In this document: positions 1-14,279 of the stretch, in pieces
How positions within the stretch are numbered: the first letter of the stretch is position 1
Layout of the letters: every line of letters begins with the position of its first letter
Virus record (IMG/VR): IMGVR_UViG_3300010373_000052
Coordinates: 1-58,198 of that record
DNA: 58,198 nucleotides
Reading direction: 5' to 3' (one strand)
From: a virus
Lineage: Duplodnaviria; Caudoviricetes
Translations under genes and position numbers: made by a program
Notes under the pieces: model-generated
What the model was told of the DNA's origin: nothing
What the model saw: only the letters and a program-made list of their open reading frames with translations
The model's database searches: none

Positions 1-573
1 CCACGCCGCATCTCTCACCGCATCTCTCACCGCAGCCCCCGCCGCATCCCCCGCCGCAGCCCCCGCCGCAGCCCCCGCCGCAGCCCTCACCGCATCCCAC
101 GCCGCATCTCTCACCGCATCCCACGCCGCAGCCCCCTGCTTGCGAGCTTCTTCCAGTGTGGGCATCGCAGATTTGGCCGTCTGCCTTGACACGACTGGCG
201 GCAACGACCGCACCGCTTGGGCGACCTCGGTGCAACCGGCCAACTCCAGCCAGGCTGGCGTCTGAACTCGGATGAACCAATCCGCCGCCATCCACGCGCG
301 CTTGCTCTCCTGCGCCTTCGTTCCCTTCGTGCCGATCAACTTGGGCAGGTAGGGCTTAAGCCGTTGCCTGCCTTCATCGTCCAGCGCGTCGTTCCACGAC
401 CGCATGAACGCCGAGATGACCGGACTGGCACATTTGGGACGGTCACTCCACGGCTCACCGGCCAGGTAGCTGACGACTTCCATCGCGCACGCCCCTTCCT
501 CCAGGTTGGCGTGCCCTCCGCTCTTTAGCAGAATGTCGTCCAGGATAGACAGGCGGTCCTCGATCAATGTCAT
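1..573 (-). CDS. Phage protein with C-terminal A-A-W-D/A-A-G-A repeats (truncated by window start)
   Basis: Own translation (absent from ORF track): ATG 573 after GAAGGGG RBS; MTLIEDRLSILDDILLKSGGHANLEEGACAMEVVSYLAGEPWSDRPKCASPVISAFMRSWND...AAWDAVRDAAWDAVRAAAGAAAG; frame open to base 1. Confidence 0.8.
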   Translation of the reverse strand, partial: MTLIEDRLSILDDILLKSGGHANLEEGACAMEVVSYLAGEPWSDRPKCASPVISAFMRSWNDALDDEGRQRLKPYLPKLIGTKGTKAQESKRAWMAADWFIRVQTPAWLELAGCTEVAQAVRSLPPVVSRQTAKSAMPTLEEARKQGAAAWDAVRDAAWDAVRAAAGAAAGAAAGDAAGAAVRDAVRDAAW

Positions 574-5156: not shown

Positions 5157-5969
5157 TCAAAACGGCTCCTCACCGGTAGGTTGCGACGACGCGGACTCGG
5201 TGACTGCGTCCGGCAGCTTCCAGCCGCCCTCGATGGCTTCGGTAAGCCACGTGCCGGATTTCCAGTCGAGTTCCTCAGCGTTGACGCCAAACAGGTGGAG
5301 TGCGGCGAGGTTGGCGTCCACGTCCCTCCCGCGGGAGATGGCCCACAGCCGCCGCACCTTGCCCTCCGAGAGCTTCTCTAGCGACTCGTCGTAGCGGGGC
5401 TGTGGCTTTCCCTTGCTGGGTTCCTTCAGCTCCCCCGTCTCGGGATCGTGCGCCGGTTGGGGGGCACGTCGCACGGTTCCCTGGGCTCGGCGGTTCGTCG
5501 TGGAGCCGTTGCCGTTGGCTGGCAGTACGTTCGTCGCCTTGTCCTCGGAGTGCCCGGATTCCAACCCGTCCTTGGCCCACAGATCCAGCGCCACACCGAA
5601 GCGCATGGCAGCGTTGCGGAGCGCGTCTCCGATCCGCTCCTTCATCGAAGGCCCGTCGCCTACGCCGAGGCGCGTTACCCCGCAGACCGTCAGCCGAATC
5701 CACAGGTTGCCCTCGCGGTCGAGGGCGGGCAGGCCCGATGCGTCAAGGGACAGGGGCTCCCACGTCCACTCCGGGTCGACGCTCAACAGCCGGTCGGTCA
5801 CGGCAGCGTGGCCGACGAAGTCCAAGTGCGCGGCGGGTAGGCCGTGGTAGCCACTGCAGACGTCGCACTTGCCCTTGGGCGAGTCCTTTTTGTACGGCTT
5901 GGGCAAGATCCCGACGGTGCCGGGCGGGAACGGCTCCCGCAGCTTTTCGAGTCGTTGATCCTCGGCCAT
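5157..5969 (-). CDS. Sak/Rad52-like single-strand annealing protein
   Basis: LREPFP..., LDFVGHAAVTDRL..VDPEWTW, IGDALRNAAMRFGVALDLW; acidic EEPF tail; adjacent to exonuclease. Confidence 0.82.
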   Translation of the reverse strand: MAEDQRLEKLREPFPPGTVGILPKPYKKDSPKGKCDVCSGYHGLPAAHLDFVGHAAVTDRLLSVDPEWTWEPLSLDASGLPALDREGNLWIRLTVCGVTRLGVGDGPSMKERIGDALRNAAMRFGVALDLWAKDGLESGHSEDKATNVLPANGNGSTTNRRAQGTVRRAPQPAHDPETGELKEPSKGKPQPRYDESLEKLSEGKVRRLWAISRGRDVDANLAALHLFGVNAEELDWKSGTWLTEAIEGGWKLPDAVTESASSQPTGEEPF

Positions 5970-7834
5970 CACGCACCTCCCACAGACACCACGTCGGGCA
6001 CCTCGGGCAGACCCTTGCGCCACGTGACCAGATCGACCATCTTCAAGAAGACGTCGTGGTTGGCCTTGTCCAGCGGCAACTCGTAGAACGTGTAGCCCTC
6101 GTCGCCTCGCAGGTGGATGACACCCAGGCGGTCGGGTGGGGACCACGGCCCGGTGCCCACCTCTTGCACCTTCACCTTGCCGTCCTCCTCCCACGCCTCG
6201 TATTCGACGGTCTCGGTGGCGAAGGCGAGGGCGGTGAGCTGGGGCAGCCACGAATCGACGTAGATGCCTTTGCCGTCGTCCTGCTGGTTGGTGCTGTTGT
6301 GGGTCGGCACCATCTGTTCGCCACACAGATAGGTGTGGTCGGGGCTGTCAACGGCGATGCATTGGGTGGGCACCGACACGGTTGGCTCTACCGAGACGAT
6401 GAGGCGGCGACGGCCGTGCGCGGTGCCCTCAACCCGAACGGCGTCCCGCTTGTGCGCCACGTGGCGGAATGGGTTGTCTCGGTGGGGGGTGAATGCCACC
6501 CGATAGACGGTCACCTCCAGTCCGAACCCATGCTTGGTGAACGTGGACTGAGACGCATGCCAACCAAGCGAGACGACCAGTTCGTATACGTCCGCCGCAA
6601 GCTGCTTGTCGACAACGTCAAAGACGGCCTGGCGTCGTTTCTTGTTCCAGGTTCCGTCGGTATCCATGAGCCCCTGCAGCAACGCAAGGCGCTGGGATTG
6701 GCTTCCGCGCAAGTACGACCTCGGGACATGCTTATCAATGCTTGTGTCTCCGGTGGCTCCCATCTGACCGCAAGCTCGTAGATAAGGACGGAAGCCCAAC
6801 ACGTTCCACGACTCACCAGGATTCTCTGAGAGCGTGAAACCAGCATCACGGAACGCCTGCGCAACCGGAGCCTTGAGTCCGGGCAGGCTCACCCGCGTGT
6901 CACAACGGGTTCCATCGCCCAGCCATGCGCCGAGGAGGTACGGGTCTAACGGCAGGTCGGCGTCGGGCAAATCAAGCGGGGCTGGATTGACAACGCCGTA
7001 ACGACGTCGGGCACCGCGGCCCACCCTGGCGTTAATGTCGTCAGCAAGCTCGATTGTGGTCTTGACGCTGCGCGTCCCAGTAGCCATATGCGTGACCAGC
7101 CAGCGGTGGTCGTAATCACAAACCACCGATGACCCATCGTCAAACGTGACTCGGTAACAGTCCTTCTCATGGATGGCCGACTTCCCTACGACGCGAACAG
7201 GAGCGCCATCGTGACCGAAGACGCTGTCGCCGACAGCGATCGCGCCCATCGTGGTCCAACCCGCTGGGGTTGGAATCGGGGTGTCGAGAGATAGACCCTT
7301 CCAGTCGAGCAACCAGTCGTCCCCGACGATGCGGGCTCGCAGGTCGCCCGTGCCGATGTACTTGCCGGGGTAGCGCACCACCGTCTCGGTGGAGATGACC
7401 TCGGGCATGTGGTCGGCCCACCATGCCTCGATGCCGAGCACGTAGCCCAGGGCCGTCTCGGTCAGCTCGTCGGCGTTGCGGTCCTTCCACGTGCGGGCGT
7501 TGTGGTCGTGGGCGATGGTCCACTCGATGAGCGCCTGGATGTCGATGTCCTCACCTGCCGCGAACGCTTCGGGCACCTTGTGGCACAGCGTCCCCATGGC
7601 CGCCCGGCCGTTCCAGATCCCGGCGTGGTGCTTGCGGAGCTTGTCGATGGCGTCCGCAACGTCCATGTGCAGCCACTCGTCGTGGTGGAGCACGGCGTAC
7701 ATGGCCGTCTCGCGTGCCGCGCCCCACGACAGGCCGGGCTTGGACAGGATGTCGATGATCGTCGTGACGCTCGGCTCCGTGCCCCGAATCTTCGAGTACG
7801 GCCGAGCCGGGACCAGCGTCCTCTCTCTCAGCAT
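5969..7834 (-). CDS. PD-(D/E)XK (RecE/Cas4-like) exonuclease interrupted by an intein
   Basis: PSVTTI, GTLCH, YIGTGDL, LLDWK|intein|STN..QL..; ATG 7834 with RBS. Confidence 0.85.
   Translation of the reverse strand: MLRERTLVPARPYSKIRGTEPSVTTIIDILSKPGLSWGAARETAMYAVLHHDEWLHMDVADAIDKLRKHHAGIWNGRAAMGTLCHKVPEAFAAGEDIDIQALIEWTIAHDHNARTWKDRNADELTETALGYVLGIEAWWADHMPEVISTETVVRYPGKYIGTGDLRARIVGDDWLLDWKGLSLDTPIPTPAGWTTMGAIAVGDSVFGHDGAPVRVVGKSAIHEKDCYRVTFDDGSSVVCDYDHRWLVTHMATGTRSVKTTIELADDINARVGRGARRRYGVVNPAPLDLPDADLPLDPYLLGAWLGDGTRCDTRVSLPGLKAPVAQAFRDAGFTLSENPGESWNVLGFRPYLRACGQMGATGDTSIDKHVPRSYLRGSQSQRLALLQGLMDTDGTWNKKRRQAVFDVVDKQLAADVYELVVSLGWHASQSTFTKHGFGLEVTVYRVAFTPHRDNPFRHVAHKRDAVRVEGTAHGRRRLIVSVEPTVSVPTQCIAVDSPDHTYLCGEQMVPTHNSTNQQDDGKGIYVDSWLPQLTALAFATETVEYEAWEEDGKVKVQEVGTGPWSPPDRLGVIHLRGDEGYTFYELPLDKANHDVFLKMVDLVTWRKGLPEVPDVVSVGGA
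6296..7297 (-). mobile_element. 334-aa intein with LAGLIDADG homing endonuclease, class 3-type
   Basis: Begins GLSLDTPIPTP, block B CDYDHRW, LAGLIDADG motifs YLLGAWLGDG and LLQGLMDTDG, block F TQCIAV, ends VPTHN followed by Ser. Confidence 0.92.
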
Positions 7835-8032
7835 TCCCCTATCTCCCTCTCTGGTGTTGCTTCGGTCGGCAGGTCGGCCAACGTGGCACACGTGCGCACG
7901 CCGTGCGTGTGGACGTGGCCGAACCAAACCCGCTTAATCTCCTCGCCGCAGTTGGCGCAGAGCGAAACCGCCCCAGTCCCGCCTGCACGTGGCGAGGGGG
8001 AGACAGCCGTTGTGGACGGGACTGGGGCAGAA

Positions 8033-8697: not shown

Positions 8698-9066
8698 TCA
8701 CGGCAGGTCCCCACTCGCGATGGCGGCGAACATGCGGTCAGGCAGTGGGTCGTCCCACCACACGTCGACGAACTCGACGCCGCTACCGGGATCAGAAACC
8801 CCGGTGTCTCGACCGGCGTGGTAACGGTTGACCCGCACCTCCTCGTCGCCGACGATGAAGCGGACGCGGACGGAGCGAATGAGCTGGGCCGCTTGGTCCA
8901 GCCTGTACTCGTGAGCTGCTCGGCGGTCGTCCCACTCGAACCGGTCGTGTAGTGCGTGGTCGGGGTCGGTAGCTTCCTCTACCAAGTCGACCGGGCGCAG
9001 TTCGCCCCGACGCTTGTAGAGCTCCTCCAGCACCGCCTCTACAACGGACGTGGCGTCAGTCGTCAT
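8698..9066 (-). CDS. Phage protein coupled to the Cas7-like gene (putative accessory of the repeat system)
   Basis: ATGA overlap with 9063..9539; LHDRFEWDDRRAAHEYRLDQAAQLIRSVRV motif. Confidence 0.75.
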   Translation of the reverse strand: MTTDATSVVEAVLEELYKRRGELRPVDLVEEATDPDHALHDRFEWDDRRAAHEYRLDQAAQLIRSVRVRFIVGDEEVRVNRYHAGRDTGVSDPGSGVEFVDVWWDDPLPDRMFAAIASGDLP

Positions 9067-9539
9067 CCCGCCACCTCGACAATCTCCAACTCGTCGTTCA
9101 CTTGGAAGGTGCCGAACGTTCCACCCTTCTCCGGGCGCCACTCGCCGACGCCATCGCCCGTGCCTCCGGCATCGACCAACGCCAACACTGAGGACTTGTC
9201 GTAGAAACGGGCACCGCCCACTACGGCCGACTTGAACGCCGCCGCAGGGAATCCCACACTGCCGTCGGCCATGCGGTAGATGGACTCTTGAAAGTCGCCT
9301 TCTGGATCGCGGATCGTCTTCTGCTTCTTCCGACCCTGCTGGGCGTCCAGCATGATCTGTTTCGCCTTGGCGCTCCAAGCGTGAACGATTAACGGCGCCG
9401 TGCCAATCACTGGGACCAGCACGGTCCGTCGCTCGATGCGTTGGATCGAGATCGCAGCCGATCCAGTTTCAGCCGGTGTCGCGACCTTGGTCCCCTTCGG
9501 AACCTTCCCGTTCGTCTTGACCTCAGTTGCCGTAGTCAC
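9063..9539 (-). CDS. Cas7/RAMP-like RNA-binding protein (158 aa, possibly internally deleted)
   Basis: GAGGGAGGAG RBS, GTG 9539; VPVIGTAPLIVH (RAMP beta1), GFPAAAFKSA (RAMP IP-x-S-x-KG-like), Gly-rich loop GDGVGEWRPEKGGTFGTFQV. Confidence 0.75.
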   Translation of the reverse strand: MTTATEVKTNGKVPKGTKVATPAETGSAAISIQRIERRTVLVPVIGTAPLIVHAWSAKAKQIMLDAQQGRKKQKTIRDPEGDFQESIYRMADGSVGFPAAAFKSAVVGGARFYDKSSVLALVDAGGTGDGVGEWRPEKGGTFGTFQVNDELEIVEVAG

Positions 9540-9572
9540 CTCGAAAACTCCTCCCTCTTGGTTGTTGGCTGT

Positions 9573-9839
9573 AGGCCATGCCCGGCCCTGCCCAGCGGAG
9601 CCCTGACAGGCCCAGCCACGCATAGGCCATGCCAGCCGCGCCCTGCCATGCCCTGCCCAGCGAGGCCTAGCCGTGCCATGCCTGCCGTGCCGTGCCACGC
9701 CATGCCCAGAGCCGCCGGGCCATGCCACGCCGGCCTAGCCACGCCTGGCCGAGCCCCGCCTTGCCGAGCCGAGCCGGGCCAAGCCTGGCAAGCCATGCCG
9801 CGCCGAGTCGCGCCCTGCCGGGCCCTGCCACGCCCCGAC
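9573..9839 (-). ncRNA. GGC-NN pentamer array (about 50 pentamers in five units): candidate guide-RNA array
   Basis: Minus strand reads GGCGT GGCAG GGCCC GGCAG GGCGC ...; constant GGC, variable NN, register broken by 4-nt units every 9-11 pentamers; fills the intergenic gap upstream of the RAMP-like gene. Confidence 0.85.
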
Positions 9840-9851
9840 TGGTAGAAAACT

Positions 9852-10194
9852 TCACGACTCAACCGCCTCGAACCGGTCGCACAGACAATCCAGGCACGCC
9901 TCCCAGGCCCACGTCTCCACGTGCGCCTCGCTCGAATGTCCGCAGACACATGAGCCACCAGCCGACGGGGACTGCACGTCCAGCCGACGCACCGTGGGTT
10001 CACTCACCACGACTGGCGTCCTTCCATGAGCAGCGCGCTCAGTGCCGCGCGGCGCAGGTTGTCCTTCGTCGTCTCGTCCACGTCGGGGAAGGCTGCGAGG
10101 TGGCGGTCGTAGTGCTGCTCGTGCCACGGCAACGAGTACGGCAGCGGGTAGCCCTCGGTGGGCAGGCACGGCATCCCGCAGGGGCACGTGTAGC

Positions 10195-10198
<4 letters not shown>
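9852..10198 (-). CDS. Two small Cys/His-rich hypothetical proteins (about 9852-10007 and 10004-10198)
   Basis: GTGA-coupled short ORFs with CVCGH..H..CLDCLC and CPCG..H motifs. Confidence 0.5.
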
Positions 10199-10847
<649 letters not shown>

Positions 10848-11027: not shown

Positions 11028-11212
11028 GAGGGCTCTCCGTGGATGTGCTTTTCGAGTCGGATGACAGACACGCGCCAGCGGCGACCGAGTCGGAAGGCGC
11101 CCGGCAGTTCGCCACGCGCCGCGAGCTCGTACGCCGTCTTGCTCGCGATTCCCAGCCGACGTGCGGCCTGGGGAATGGTTATGAGGTCGGGGGGGAGCTG
11201 GGCGAGGGTCAC
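11024..11212 (-). CDS. xis: Excisionase-like HTH_17 protein
   Basis: LITIPQAARRLGIASKTAYELAARGELPGAFRLGRRWRV; directly after cro. Confidence 0.8.
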   Translation of the reverse strand: MTLAQLPPDLITIPQAARRLGIASKTAYELAARGELPGAFRLGRRWRVSVIRLEKHIHGEPS

Positions 11213-11466
11213 GACGACGCTGCTTGCTCGTCCGGCATGTCCGGGGTGATGTCGGGAAACCCCGCTAGGTCGGCCACCGTCATCTGGAATGCCCCCGCGA
11301 GGAGAACGAGGTGTTCGTAACTGGGGGTCTGAAGGCCCTTCTCCCACCGCGAAACGGTGGACTGAGGCTTGCCGATTTGTGCGGCTAAACGTTCCTGCGT
11401 GCCGTATATCTGGCGCCGCCTCTTCTGGATCCGTTTGGCCAGGGCAGTCTTGATGTCTTCGACCAC
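11209..11466 (-). CDS. cro: Cro-like XRE HTH regulator
   Basis: TQERLAAQIGKPQSTVSRWEKGLQTPS; divergent from cI. Confidence 0.85.
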   Translation of the reverse strand: MVEDIKTALAKRIQKRRRQIYGTQERLAAQIGKPQSTVSRWEKGLQTPSYEHLVLLAGAFQMTVADLAGFPDITPDMPDEQAASS

Positions 11467-11591
11467 GACATAAGCATATGCGTATGCGTCATAGATTGCA
11501 AGCCCCATCCACCAGGGGCTTTGGTGAAATCACCAAGGGGTAGTTACGTCTATACGGCAAACGCATATGCGCATCGCGTAGGATCCGGGGT
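11467..11591. promoter_or_regulatory. Lysis-lysogeny switch: divergent promoters and operators
   Basis: Leftward TTGCAA(11501-11496)-17 bp-TATGCT ending 6 nt before the cro GTG; rightward TAGGAT (11579-84) 7 nt before the cI GTG; GCATATGC palindromes at 11474 and 11563; TTGGTGA-AA-TCACCAA at 11521-11536. Confidence 0.8.
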
Positions 11592-11954
11592 GTGGGATTT
11601 GGAGCAGCAATCAGGGGAAGTAGGAAGGCCGCCGGATTAACTCAGACCGAGCTGAAGGATCGCCTTCGAGAGCGGGACCCCAAGACGACCATCGACCAGT
11701 CGGTGATTTCGCGTTGGGAGAACGAATCCCCAGGGCGGGCACCCGATCTAGACGACCTTGCGGCACTCGAGGACGCTCTGGATCTGCCGAGAGGCGGCCT
11801 GCTGGTGCGCTCTGGGTTTGTGGCTGAGGTTGTATCCGTCGAGCTCGCAGTCATGACCGACCAGCGGCTAGACGATCAGGGGCGCCAACTTCTCATTAAC
11901 GCCTATCGGGGCCTTGTTCAGCCGAAGCCGGGTCGCCGACGGGGAGCCCGATGA
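11592..11954 (+). CDS. cI: CI-like XRE immunity repressor
   Basis: GLTQTEL...IDQSVISRWENE..PDLDDLAALEDALDL; position between cro and integrase. Confidence 0.85.
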   Translation: MGFGAAIRGSRKAAGLTQTELKDRLRERDPKTTIDQSVISRWENESPGRAPDLDDLAALEDALDLPRGGLLVRSGFVAEVVSVELAVMTDQRLDDQGRQLLINAYRGLVQPKPGRRRGAR

Positions 11955-12918: not shown

Positions 12919-13135
12919 TGTCCTACCATCGGGCCTAGTAACAGACGGGTTTCCCTTCGTCTGCGCGCCCCTACGTTCTACGTTAGTGCAGCGTGCGACG
13001 CTTAAAGGTACTTGGCTGCCTCTCACTCCACGCCGGGGCAATATTTATGAGTCCCCTGCTCTGACCACTGAGCTACGGCCCCTGACTGGGATATCTGTCA
13101 TGGGTTGCTCGGCAGGGCCTAGCAATGTCCTACCA
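12919..13135. other. attP: attP with arm-type sites and a core in a tRNA(CAT) fragment
   Basis: Direct repeats TGTCCTACCA (12919, 13126) and GGGCCTAG (12931, ~13115) flank the tRNA fragment; immediately upstream of int. Confidence 0.75.
13045..13082 (-). pseudogene. 5' half of a tRNA with CAT anticodon (Ile2/Met-like)
   Basis: GGGGCCG TA GCTC AGTGGTCA GAGC A GGGGA CTCATAA, after which tRNA structure stops; no T-arm downstream. Confidence 0.85.
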
Positions 13136-13154
13136 AGTAGGTTACCATTGTGCC

Positions 13155-14279
13155 ATGACCGGGACCAAGAGGGAGCGAAGTCCGGGCCACTGGCAGCTCC
13201 GGGTCTACGTGGGAAAGGACAGCCGGGGGCGGCCGATCCAGGTGTCCCGCTCCTTCTCTGGTGGCGTGCGGGCGGCGGGCAAGGCATTGGCGAACCTGGT
13301 GGCCGAGGTGGACGCCCAGAAGCTCCACCCCTCGACGGTGACCGTGGGACAGCTCCTCGACCGATGGCTGGAGCACTCGGAGCCACGACGCTCGGTCACC
13401 ACGATGATCGGCTACCGGCGCAAGATCGAACACGCTCTCCGGCCAGCGTTCGGCTCGATACGTCTCGGACGGCTCCGAGCCGACGTTATCGACGCCCGCT
13501 ACCGGGAGTGGCTGGATAGCGGGCTCTCCCCCACCACCGTGCGTCAGTACCACGCCATCCTGTCTGCCGCCCTGAACCAGGCCGTCAAGTGGGGCTGGAT
13601 AGCTGAGAACGTCGCCGTGCGGACGAGCCCGCCCAGCGCTCGCCGGGTCCAGTTGGCCGTACCGACTCCGAAGGAGATCCAAGCCATCATCGCCAGGGCT
13701 GAGAGGCGAGACGAAACCCTCGCCACCGCGGTCGCCCTGGCCGCCCTGACTGGAGCGCGACGTGGAGAAATCTGCGCCCTTCGGTGGACCGACGTAACCC
13801 TTGGCGTCCTCACTATCTCCCGGTCAATATCGGTCGTCGGAAAGAAGGTCCACGAAGGCGGCACCAAGACCCACCAGGCGCGGGTCATCGCCTTGGATGA
13901 GACGGGCCAGGAAGTTCTCAGCCGACGCCGGCTTGAAGCACTCGACTTGGCGGGACACGTGGGCACCGACCTCGCCGCCGACGCGTTCGTCCTATCGCCA
14001 CGTGGCGATGGTCGCGCTCCGATGCTCCCTGACACCCTCAGTCACCGGTTCGCGGCATTGATGAAAGACATGGGACTGCCGTACCATTTCCATGACCTCC
14101 GCCACTTCGCCGCCACGCAGATGGTCGCCGCGGGGACGGACCTGCGTACCGTGGCTGGACGGCTGGGCCACGCCGACCCGTCGATGACGCTCCGGGTCTA
14201 CGCCCACGCCCTGCCCGAACGGGACCGCGAGGCCGCCGAGTTGTTGGGGCGGGTGCTGATGCCTCCACCCCAGGGTTGA
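13155..14279 (+). CDS. int: Tyrosine integrase
   Basis: TGARRGEICAL, TKT, HFHDLRH, RLGHA, LRVYAH catalytic set; N-terminal arm-binding domain. Confidence 0.95.
   Translation: MTGTKRERSPGHWQLRVYVGKDSRGRPIQVSRSFSGGVRAAGKALANLVAEVDAQKLHPSTVTVGQLLDRWLEHSEPRRSVTTMIGYRRKIEHALRPAFGSIRLGRLRADVIDARYREWLDSGLSPTTVRQYHAILSAALNQAVKWGWIAENVAVRTSPPSARRVQLAVPTPKEIQAIIARAERRDETLATAVALAALTGARRGEICALRWTDVTLGVLTISRSISVVGKKVHEGGTKTHQARVIALDETGQEVLSRRRLEALDLAGHVGTDLAADAFVLSPRGDGRAPMLPDTLSHRFAALMKDMGLPYHFHDLRHFAATQMVAAGTDLRTVAGRLGHADPSMTLRVYAHALPERDREAAELLGRVLMPPPQG

What the first reader, a model, noticed from the sequence alone, without database searches (positions are those of the whole stretch)
9573..9624. Array unit decodes to the tyrosine-integrase catalytic motif R-I-R-L-H-D-L-R-H-T-Y
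On the + strand the variable dinucleotides at 9573, 9578, ... 9623 are AG AT CG CT CA GA CT AG CA AC TA. As codon positions 1-2 they give (R/S)(I/M)R L(H/Q)(D/E)L(R/S)(H/Q)T Y, compatible with the HxLRH box of tyrosine recombinases. The last TA depends on which of two possible registers is used. The RNA would be antisense to a target AGnATnCGnCTnCAnGAnCTnAGnCAnACnTA with every wobble base skipped, so synonymous third-position changes could not give escape. The phage's own integrase (CCG TAC CAT TTC CAT GAC CTC CGC CAC TTC GCC, ~14079-14111) matches only 4 of 11 dinucleotides, consistent with targeting a competitor while sparing self.
Basis: partly seen in the sequence, partly recalled or inferred. 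Interest (0 to 1): 0.95.

Follow-up and report, generated by a model that had tools for sequence, protein, structure and literature searches.

The report
Phage VIPR guide RNA against integrases
The flagged stretch is one guide of a phage VIPR guide-RNA array, a system first described in 2026, and its variable bases spell, with every third base skipped, the catalytic "RIRLHDLRHT" box of tyrosine integrases carried by rival mobile elements.

Summary
Window 9573-9838 holds about 50 pentamer units, NNGCC on the + strand and GGCNN on the transcribed minus strand. It lies directly upstream of a gene (9063-9542, minus) whose family matches the solved "SUSP1 Vipr protein" (profile E 1.3e-37). This is a VIPR locus, a kind of system published in three 2026 bioRxiv preprints: a small RAMP protein coats a GGY/NN repeat RNA, and the NN pairs read double-stranded DNA while skipping one base per unit, usually the codon wobble base. 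The ten in-register units at 9573-9622 give AG.AT.CG.CT.CA.GA.CT.AG.CA.AC. All 120 hits are in frame in integrase box II: 117 RIRLHDLRHT, 6 of them perfect 20/20 matches. It also hit 13 viral contigs. Controls with 0-base gaps, 2-base gaps and a shuffled order each gave 0 hits. In 301 Mycobacteriales genomes there were 19 near-matches against 0 for the backwards control. The phage's own integrase matches only 11/20. Caveats: the eleventh dinucleotide, "TA", is not supported. Three of the ten scaffolds are degenerate. This phage's Vipr lacks about 70 residues, including the thumb, so activity here is doubtful. Verdict: a new member of a known kind.

The parts
9573..9838 (-). vrRNA array of about 50 GGY-NN pentamer units (GGCNN on the minus strand). 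It lies between the stop of a small upstream gene (9852) and the ribosome-binding site of vipr.
   Evidence: Period-5 repeat, 30 pattern hits against 0.08 expected. A higher-order period of about 49 nt was found by TRF.
9573..9622 (-). Guide E, the finding: 10 in-register units, [TGC]GT TG CT [GTC]AG TC [CGC]TG AG CG AT CT in the sense direction. Its reverse complement is AG AT CG CT CA GA CT AG CA AC, which reads (R/S)(I/M)RL(H/Q)(D/E)L(R/S)(H/Q)T. Three scaffolds are degenerate.
   Evidence: Parse. Target scans and controls.
9623..9633 (-).
9638..9682 (-). Guide D: AT AC TA CT [CGC]TG AG AT AG GC, followed by the 4-nt junction unit GGC-T (9634-9637). It is a paralogue of guide E and shares CGCTG-GGCAG. 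No target was found.
9687..9731 (-). Guide C: GT AT CC GG [CTC]TG AT GT AC AC, followed by junction unit GGC-A (9683-9686). No target was found.
9736..9790 (-). Guide B: [TGC]CA TT CC TC TC AA GG TC CA GT TA, followed by junction unit GGC-C (9732-9735). It has the cleanest scaffolds. No exact target was found in the viral or metagenome collections.
9795..9838 (-). Guide A: GT AG CC AG GC [GAC]TC GC AT. The parse of the next 9 nt is ambiguous. No target was found.
9063..9542 (-). vipr homologue (159 aa, phrog_4652). The N-terminal PLIVH strand and the C-terminal G-loop GVGEWRP...GTFGTF are kept. About 70 residues are deleted internally, including the conserved DLRYR...W block that aligns with the thumb of SUSP1 Vipr (R138).
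   Evidence: AlphaFold model with pLDDT 87.
8698..9066 (-). Candidate vipr-accessory gene (vap), 122 aa, phrog_15946. Its start overlaps the vipr stop (ATGA).
   Evidence: Homologues lie next to vipr in 29 other loci, including Florinda gp61.
13125..14279 (+). The phage's own tyrosine integrase. Its box II reads PYHFHDLRHF at 14079-14111 and is not matched by guide E (11 of 20).
   Evidence: PF00589, E 9.9e-23.
11209..11508 (-). Cro-like HTH_3 regulator at the head of the leftward operon that contains the VIPR locus. The divergent HTH_3 repressor-like gene lies at 11592-11954 (+).

Best explanation
Window 9573-9838 is the guide-RNA (vrRNA) array of a VIPR system, followed on the same (minus) strand by vipr (9063-9542) and a conserved accessory gene (8698-9066). 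In the published mechanism one Vipr protomer binds each GGY-NN unit. GGY is buried in the protein, and the NN pairs are presented to double-stranded DNA and pair with it while one target base per unit is skipped. Binding silences transcription. The ten units at 9573-9622 form one such guide. Its NN code is complementary to the coding strand of tyrosine-integrase box II and reads codon positions 1-2 of R-I-R-L-H-D-L-R-H-T while skipping every wobble base. The locus sits in the leftward early operon, so the most likely role is silencing the integrase of resident or co-infecting integrative elements (prophages, satellites, ICE-like elements). That would stop them excising or integrating. The phage's own integrase (PYHFHDLRHF) is spared. 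Shown here: the array, the Vipr homology, the conserved gene neighbourhood, the 1-base-gap complementarity to real integrase genes with controls, and the absence of a self-target. Taken from the preprints: the binding mechanism and silencing. Inferred: expression and processing of this guide, and that it acts at all in this phage. Its Vipr lacks the thumb, so it may need a Vipr supplied in trans or may be a relic. The confidence given is for identity and target complementarity. I put activity in this phage at about 0.4.
For: (1) Array. (2) Protein: a profile of 63 array-adjacent proteins, with the window's protein first, matches PDB 36pp 'SUSP1 Vipr protein' at E 1.3e-37 over 185 positions. 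The family is found next to GCCNN arrays in the window, in Florinda, in Quico and in 85 of 120 IMG/VR loci that were fetched by the array pattern alone. (3) Orientation: flanking genes lie on the GGC strand in 98 of 118 upstream and 98 of 120 downstream callable flanks (crude GC3 caller). In-register run lengths peak at 9-12 units, and the preprint reports 9-16. (4) Target: at least 120 genome contigs, 120/120 in frame in box II, with 6 at 20/20, 26 at 19/20 and 88 at 18/20. There are also 13 viral contigs, 13/13 in frame. Pfam PF00589 was found in 9 of 9 target ORFs tested. An excisionase-like gene lies beside one of them. (5) Controls: 0-gap 0, 2-gap 0 and shuffled order 0 in viral contigs, against 13. 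There were 19 matches in 16 of 301 genomes against 0 for the backwards pattern, and 17 of the 19 read xxRLHDL[R/W]H. (6) No self-target: the best match in the window is 14/20, equal to the null (mean 14.0, max 16), and the own box II scores 11/20. (7) Published precedent: the 1-nt skip rule, wobble alignment and either-strand targeting, and a vrRNA aimed at the active-site codons of a satellite recombinase.
Against: The window's Vipr is 159 aa against about 200 in relatives. It lacks the block that aligns to SUSP1 residues of about 127-165, including the thumb Arg whose alanine substitution abolished silencing in SUSP1. Three of guide E's 10 scaffolds are not GGY (TGC, GTC, CGC), against 5.9% degenerate units overall. 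Only 36 of 257 runs of 8-12 units have two or more degenerate units. The preprint reports that perturbing GGY abolished silencing. The exact AG/AG pattern has 0 hits in viral contigs and fits only 6 of 120 genome hits. Most targets use CGN for both arginines, giving 18/20. No target was found for guides A-D. No RNA data exist for this sequence. The host is unknown, so no actual co-resident target element was identified. One perfect match (L240, genome G005) and one of the 19 sample matches (G222) lie in genomes flagged unpublished.
Confidence: 0.8

Rival explanations
1. Relic locus. The array and its anti-integrase guide are fossils of a once-active VIPR system. With a thumb-less Vipr and decaying scaffolds, nothing is silenced today.
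For: There is an internal deletion of about 70 aa that removes the nearly invariant R/D/R/G/D/R/R/W columns and the SUSP1 R138 equivalent. Guide E has 3 degenerate scaffolds. No targets were found for guides A-D. The vap candidate, at 122 aa, is shorter than relatives of about 150 aa.
Against: The vipr frame stays open, and the G-loop and N-terminal strand are conserved at 36-48% identity to full-length relatives. Guide B has 10 of its 11 scaffolds perfect. Guide E still matches real integrases at 18-20 of 20, which unconstrained decay would erode. The deletion is seen only in one assembly and its likely source run, so it lacks independent confirmation.
Confidence: 0.4
2. Guides used in trans. 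The phage keeps the array but relies on, or subverts, a full-length Vipr made by a co-resident phage or prophage. The second preprint describes this for satellite 'solo' vrRNAs and VIPR-null phages.
For: The published precedent covers solo vrRNAs and phages that lost vipr-vap1 yet keep guides (abstract; section titles). Here the array is intact and the Vipr is defective.
Against: No second vipr is present in the window; there was one hit among all window ORFs. No partner element was identified. Here vipr is truncated rather than absent, and vap is retained.
Confidence: 0.2
3. Coincidence. The dinucleotides happen to spell an integrase-like peptide, and the array has another or no sequence-specific role.
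For: The motif was found post hoc among many possible readings. Only 2 of 451 runs in the collected arrays decode to H-x-L-R-H.
Against: Window-only shuffles give HDLRH in 11 of 20000. All ten codons, not just five, match a real consensus: 120/120 and 13/13 in-frame hits against 0 in three controls, and 19 against 0 in 301 genomes. Across all runs, 2 were observed against 0.16 expected, and 3 of 300 shuffles reached 2.
Confidence: 0.02
4. The array is translated. The 62-codon ORF 9667-9855 (minus) has a GTG that overlaps the upstream stop as GTGA, and Florinda gp59 is annotated across the equivalent array. It would encode a Gly/Ala/Arg/Trp-rich repeat peptide.
For: The GTGA start-stop overlap. 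An annotated CDS in Florinda.
Against: GGCNN can give a stop only as TAG in one frame, so open frames are expected by construction. The period is 5 nt, not 3, and the conserved bases fall on three of every five wobble positions. Quico leaves the same stretch unannotated. Perfect arrays sit in clearly intergenic gaps of low-GC phages at 39-55% GC. The ORF has no family match.
Confidence: 0.02

Closest known systems
VIPR system of Escherichia phage SUSP1 (type II). Sources: bioRxiv 10.64898/2026.04.26.720920 and 10.64898/2026.04.26.720927; PDB 36pp.
   Same: A small RAMP protein of the same family (profile E 1.3e-37). Conserved G-loop G-x-G-[DE]-W-R-P. Guide RNA built of GGY-NN pentamers on the vipr strand. 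Runs of about 9-12 units. A target read with one skipped base per unit, aligned to codon wobble. A two-gene vipr plus accessory-gene layout. Location in a phage.
   Different: The host range is actinobacterial, judging from relatives in Mycobacterium phages. Neither 'mycobacteri' nor 'actino' occurs in the main text of the two preprints searched for those terms. The guides are contiguous and separated by 4-nt junction units instead of separate RNAs of about 100 nt with pseudoknot tails. That resembles the 'staggered arrays' the preprint mentions (legend of its fig. S18), but this was not verified. The accessory-gene family is different (phrog_15946). This copy of Vipr lacks the thumb.
SUSP1 vrRNA4 against the excision recombinase of F5 satellites (bioRxiv 10.64898/2026.10.15.759431).
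   Same: A phage guide aimed at active-site codons of a competitor's recombinase. It reads invariant codon positions and skips wobble, so escape would require damaging the enzyme.
   Different: There the enzyme has a catalytic serine and the footprint is 18 bp (6 units). Here the enzyme is a tyrosine integrase, the site is box II with the catalytic Arg and His, the footprint is 29 bp (10 units), and matching genes occur across many Actinomycetota and beyond. The SUSP1 case was tested by infection; this one is computational only.
VIPR-null phages and satellites carrying solo vrRNAs (same preprint).
   Same: Guides are kept where the protein gene is missing or defective.
   Different: Here vipr is internally deleted rather than absent, vap is kept, and the one guide with a recognisable target aims at integrases, not at other vipr genes.
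Class 1 CRISPR Cas7 backbone on crRNA.
   Same: A RAMP filament on RNA whose thumbs interrupt pairing periodically. This relationship is stated in the preprints.
   Different: In CRISPR there are 5 paired bases plus 1 flipped base on both strands, spacers are acquired between repeats, and the system is cellular. Here 2 bases pair, with 3 guide bases and 1 target base displaced, there is no CRISPR array or cas genes, and the system is viral.

Membership tests
VIPR system | A Vipr protein (minimal RAMP) is encoded next to the repeat RNA. | tested here: met
   The window gene 9063-9542 is the first sequence of alignment A1, and the A1 profile hits PDB 36pp 'SUSP1 Vipr protein' at E 1.3e-37. It shares 36-48% identity with full-length relatives. 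The window protein alone gives no PDB sequence hit and no Foldseek hit.
VIPR system | An intact Vipr with RRM core, G-loop and thumb. In SUSP1 the thumb Arg R138 is required for silencing. | tested here: not met
   The G-loop GVGEWRP and the PLIVH strand are present. The segment containing DLRYR...W, which aligns to SUSP1 127-144 including R138, is deleted.
VIPR system | vrRNA made of tandem GGY-NN pentamers, 9-16 per guide, with hypervariable NN. | tested here: met
   About 50 units fall into five runs of 8-11 units. The scaffold is GGC in most units and NN is variable. The pattern gives 30 hits against 0.08 in shuffles.
VIPR system | The array is transcribed and processed into vrRNAs of about 100 nt that co-purify with Vipr. 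| not testable with these tools
   No RNA run holds the sequence. Only strand co-orientation with vipr is shown.
VIPR system | A conserved structured 3' tail after each repeat tract. | tested here: inconclusive
   No Rfam family or ribozyme was found. Guides are separated by 4-nt units, and only guide E is followed by non-repeat sequence, which is also the vipr ribosome-binding site. Tail-like hairpins were seen in other arrays, for example L023.
VIPR system | Natural targets obey the 1-nt skip rule and align to codon wobble positions. | tested here: met
   For guide E the 1-nt gap gives 13 viral and at least 120 genomic in-frame hits, while 0-nt and 2-nt gaps give 0. A 3-nt gap was not tested. 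No targets were found for guides A-D.
VIPR system | An accessory gene (vap) lies beside vipr. | tested here: met
   Homologues of 8698-9066 lie next to vipr in 29 other loci. Its function is unknown. Which of vap1-6 it is could not be determined, because the supplements are closed.
Tyrosine recombinase (the predicted target) | The matched site lies in box II (H-x-L-R-H) of a Phage_integrase-domain protein. | tested here: met
   PF00589 was found in 9 of 9 target ORFs tested, with the match inside the domain. 120/120 hits read [RS][IM]RLH[DE]LRHT. That H-x-L-R-H is the box II motif carrying a catalytic Arg and His is recalled knowledge.

The most novel reading that the evidence does not exclude
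One guide aimed at the most conserved catalytic box of tyrosine integrases works as a broad-spectrum 'pan-integrase' silencer. A single 10-unit vrRNA could immobilise many unrelated resident prophages, satellites and integrative elements across Actinomycetota. The phage's own integrase has diverged at exactly the flanking codons (PYHF-HDLRH-F) and so escapes. The thumb-less Vipr would then mark a phage that keeps the guides and borrows or hijacks a competitor's Vipr.
Probability: 0.2. Interest if true: 0.7.

Novelty: new member of a known kind. Interest (0 to 1): 0.5.

Why it matters
VIPR was described only in 2026, and the experiments were done mainly in E. coli and Pseudomonas systems. This locus and the related arrays collected here extend it. 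The same pentamer arrays plus vipr occur in Mycobacterium phages Florinda and Quico and in 85 of 120 metagenomic viral loci spanning 39-70% GC. One guide can be decoded directly into a recognisable protein motif. A guide that reads the catalytic box of tyrosine integrases at the amino-acid-determining bases leaves the target little room to escape without damaging the enzyme. It could therefore act on many elements at once. That idea is testable in Mycobacterium smegmatis phages, and it gives a ready natural example for programming VIPR against conserved motifs. It also corrects annotation: Florinda gp59 is most likely the vrRNA array, gp60 is Vipr and gp61 is the accessory protein.

Tried and rejected
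Ideas held before the protein match, none tested and all dropped once the Vipr homology and the preprints were found:
- two-tetrad G-quadruplexes or R-loop origin
- a TRAP-like ring-protein site (recalled analogy)
- a Rho rut or anti-rut site
- an RNase E sponge
- primase sites
- a partition centromere

Searches and tests that gave nothing:
- Rfam scan of 9000-10500: only a sub-threshold miRNA hit.
- Literature searches for 'pentanucleotide repeat' + mycobacteriophage and for GCCNN/GGCNN strings: nothing relevant.
- Foldseek of the truncated Vipr model against PDB: no match.
- phmmer of the window protein alone against PDB: no match.
- Pfam: no family for Vipr or vap.
- Exact AG/AG guide E pattern in viral contigs: 0.
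- Guide B, two parses: 0 in viral contigs and 0 in two metagenome scans.
- Guides A-D against the 120 integrase loci: no score above shuffled guides.
- The second box-II-like run, in L071 (decodes A-H-V-L-R-H-A-[KN]-A-T): 0 exact hits in viral contigs, so it is not confirmed as a second example.
- Sequencing runs: no RNA holder is listed. Two soil-metagenome DNA runs hold the stretch. One may be the source and is identical. The other covers only 9310-9508 and does not span the vipr deletion.

Limits on what could be checked:
- Supplementary files of the preprints (type tables, target lists) were not seen. They may already list this phage group or integrase targets.

Full report
**What is in the sequence.** Between 9573 and 9838 the + strand is a run of about 50 five-base units of the form NNGCC. 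The eleventh, 'TA', sits across a one-base register slip at 9623. The array is far beyond chance: the six-unit pattern with up to 2 mismatches occurs 30 times, against a mean of 0.08 in 100 shuffles. It lies between two minus-strand genes, so the transcript would read GGCNN. Read on that strand, the array splits into five runs of 8-11 in-register units. The runs are separated by four 4-nt units at about 9794, 9735, 9686 and 9637.

**What it belongs to.**
- A BLAST search of the region against phage genomes matched only through the array itself, in Mycobacterium phages Florinda and Quico (Cheoctovirus). Both carry a 49-unit array in the same position, downstream of cro and ant.
- A scan of IMG/VR for eight perfect GCCNN units reached its 120-locus limit. 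Arrays of 58-719 bp occur in contigs from 39% to about 70% GC. In low-GC phages they sit in plainly intergenic gaps on the coding strand.
- A crude coding-strand caller put the flanking genes on the GGC strand in 98 of 118 upstream and 98 of 120 downstream callable flanks.
- The gene next to the window's array (9063-9542, phrog_4652, no Pfam family) has homologues beside the arrays in Florinda, Quico and 85 of the 120 IMG/VR loci.
- A profile of 63 of these proteins matches the solved 'SUSP1 Vipr protein' (PDB 36pp) at E 1.3e-37.
- The next gene (8698-9066) is also a conserved neighbour, found in 29 other loci.

**The published system.** Three 2026 bioRxiv preprints describe VIPR.
- From 10.64898/2026.04.26.720920 I read the abstract, the Results, the Discussion, two methods sections and passages found by term search. 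Vipr is a minimal RAMP protein. vrRNAs are 9-16 GGY-NN pentamers plus a 3' tail. The NN dinucleotides specify a double-stranded DNA target with one skipped base per unit, mostly the wobble base, on either strand and without a PAM. Binding silences transcription of competing phages and satellites. Array architectures vary and include 'staggered' arrays with 1-nt overlaps.
- From 10.64898/2026.04.26.720927 I read the abstract and two Results sections. One protomer binds each repeat. The thumb flips out GGY and the single skipped target base. Thumb Arg138 and G-loop Asp177 are needed for silencing.
- From 10.64898/2026.10.15.759431 I read the abstract, one Results section, one methods section and found passages. 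A SUSP1 guide reads active-site codons of a satellite's recombinase and immobilises the satellite. Solo guides exist in satellites and in phages that have lost vipr.

The window's locus fits this description feature by feature. Run lengths in the collected arrays peak at 9-12 units.

**Testing the specific claim.** The vrRNA is the minus strand. Under the published rule, the + strand dinucleotides with one N between them are therefore one strand of the predicted target.
- The exact pattern found nothing in IMG/VR.
- All 120 sites are in frame: 117 RIRLHDLRHT, 2 SIRLHDLRHT and 1 RMRLHELRHT.
- Of these, 6 match the guide at 20/20, 26 at 19/20 and 88 at 18/20. One of the six perfect matches lies in a genome flagged unpublished (G005).
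- The same pattern hit 13 viral contigs, and 13/13 read [RS]IRLHDLR[HQ]T. Four of these carry one identical sequence in what looks like a truncated gene.
- Nine of nine target ORFs tested carry Pfam Phage_integrase, with the site inside the domain. One has an excisionase-like neighbour.
- Controls in the same viral collection gave 0 for a 2-base gap, 0 for no gap and 0 for a shuffled unit order.
- In 301 genomes drawn from the order of a Rhodococcus genome, the exact pattern with up to 2 mismatches matched 19 times in 16 genomes. The backwards control matched 0 times. Seventeen of the 19 read xxRLHDL[R/W]H, and one match is in a genome flagged unpublished (G222).
- Shuffling the window's own 48 units produced HDLRH in 11 of 20000 trials.
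- Across all 451 collected runs, H-x-L-R-H appears twice (the window and L071) against 0.16 expected. The L071 pattern had no exact hit, so it remains only a hint.

**Self versus non-self.** The phage's own integrase (13125-14279, PF00589) reads PYHFHDLRHF at box II and matches guide E at 11 of 20 positions. The best match anywhere in the window is 14/20, no better than shuffled guides (mean 14.0, maximum 16). For comparison, the preprint used at least 80% NN match as its threshold and found no self-targets.

- The eleventh unit is not supported. After Thr the targets have His in 75 of 119 cases and Tyr in 6, and that unit is out of register.
- The published mechanism is recognition of duplex DNA, not antisense pairing with mRNA.
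- The AG/AG form fits a minority of targets. Most have CGN for both arginines, which gives 90% identity. That is close to the average of 89.2% of read bases matched that the second preprint reports for SUSP1 vrRNAs on the satellite recombinases.

**Doubts about activity in this phage.**
- The window's Vipr is 159 aa. Against ten relatives it lacks about 70 residues, including the columns R/D/R/G/D/R/R/W that are at least 90% conserved.
- That block aligns to SUSP1 residues 127-144, which include the thumb Arg138. Mutating Arg138 abolished silencing in SUSP1.
- The G-loop (GVGEWRP) and the N-terminal PLIVH strand remain.
- Guide E also has three non-GGY scaffolds, against 5.9% of units overall.
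- The deletion is seen in the assembly and in a run that may be its source. The only other run does not reach the deletion junction.
- No RNA data were available.

The complementarity to integrases is therefore solid. Whether this copy still silences anything is open. It may be a relic, or its guides may work with a Vipr supplied in trans.

**Context and likely role.** Divergent HTH_3 regulators at 11209-11508 (minus) and 11592-11954 (plus) mark the lysis-lysogeny switch, and an HTH_17 gene follows on the minus strand. The VIPR locus lies further down this leftward operon, as it does in Florinda, downstream of cro and ant. Expression early in lytic growth, aimed at integrases of resident elements, would parallel the SUSP1-satellite case. 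The host is unknown: the terminase region resembles Mycobacterium, Arthrobacter and Streptomyces phages only at 64-72% identity, and the sequence comes from soil metagenomes.

**Verdict.** The system itself is already described, so this is a new member of a known kind. It is an actinophage VIPR locus with a guide that reads tyrosine-integrase box II. The main texts I searched do not contain the word 'integrase' (first preprint) or 'tyrosine' (second preprint). Their supplements could not be seen.

Noticed in passing
L001 2970-3212 (Florinda gp59), 2259-2858 (gp60), 1789-2244 (gp61); L002 likewise: In Mycobacterium phage Florinda the annotated 'hypothetical protein' gp59 lies on the 49-unit pentamer array and is most likely not a gene; Quico leaves the same stretch unannotated. 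gp60 is a full-length Vipr homologue. gp61 is a homologue of the window's accessory gene.
   Followed up: partly
L071, run at 2676 on the minus strand: A 21-unit run in an unrelated viral contig decodes, in the same orientation, to ...V-A-H-V-L-R-H-A-(K/N)-A-T-(R/S). This is another tyrosine-recombinase box-II-like string. The 10-unit exact pattern had 0 hits in viral contigs.
   Followed up: partly
L023 2145-2438; L099 468-955; L010 1986-2351; L044 1622-1694 and 2361-2423: Other arrays show regular punctuation between guides. L023 has three tracts of about 14 units, each followed by the same hairpin-forming tail. L099 has 'tacctcag' every 13-16 units. L010 has GTTCA(A/G/C) every 8-10 units. 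L044 tracts end in GGGGCTTTTTAAGCC. These are probably the conserved vrRNA tails of different VIPR types.
   Followed up: no
L014 1313-2033: A vipr gene is flanked on both sides by perfect 12-unit arrays in a 52% GC contig. In several loci the array follows vipr rather than preceding it.
   Followed up: no
window 5969-7927 (minus): A 652-codon ORF combines exonuclease-like ends (phrog_298) with a central insert that hits intein-bearing terminase and primase families and a LAGLIDADG_3 domain. It looks like an intein-containing recombination exonuclease.
   Followed up: no
window 10195-10800 (minus), repeats at 10252-10444: An Imm5-like protein (PF21805, E 4.6e-14) has a C-terminal run of AANARYAA / poly-Ala repeats. 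These repeats account for the GGC-rich tandem repeats that TRF found just upstream of the VIPR locus.
   Followed up: no
window 1-136: A tandem 12/24-nt repeat (CGCCGCATCCCC, 11 copies) lies at the very start of the record. It was not examined.
   Followed up: no
window 9667-9855 (minus): A 62-codon ORF starts with a GTG that overlaps the upstream stop (GTGA) and runs into the array. Open frames are expected by construction in GGCNN repeats, so it is probably not a gene.
   Followed up: partly
L273, L278, L279, L281: Four viral contigs share an identical guide-E-matching site that reads RIRLHDLRQT, preceded by an in-frame stop 10 codons upstream. It may be a truncated integrase remnant.
   Followed up: no
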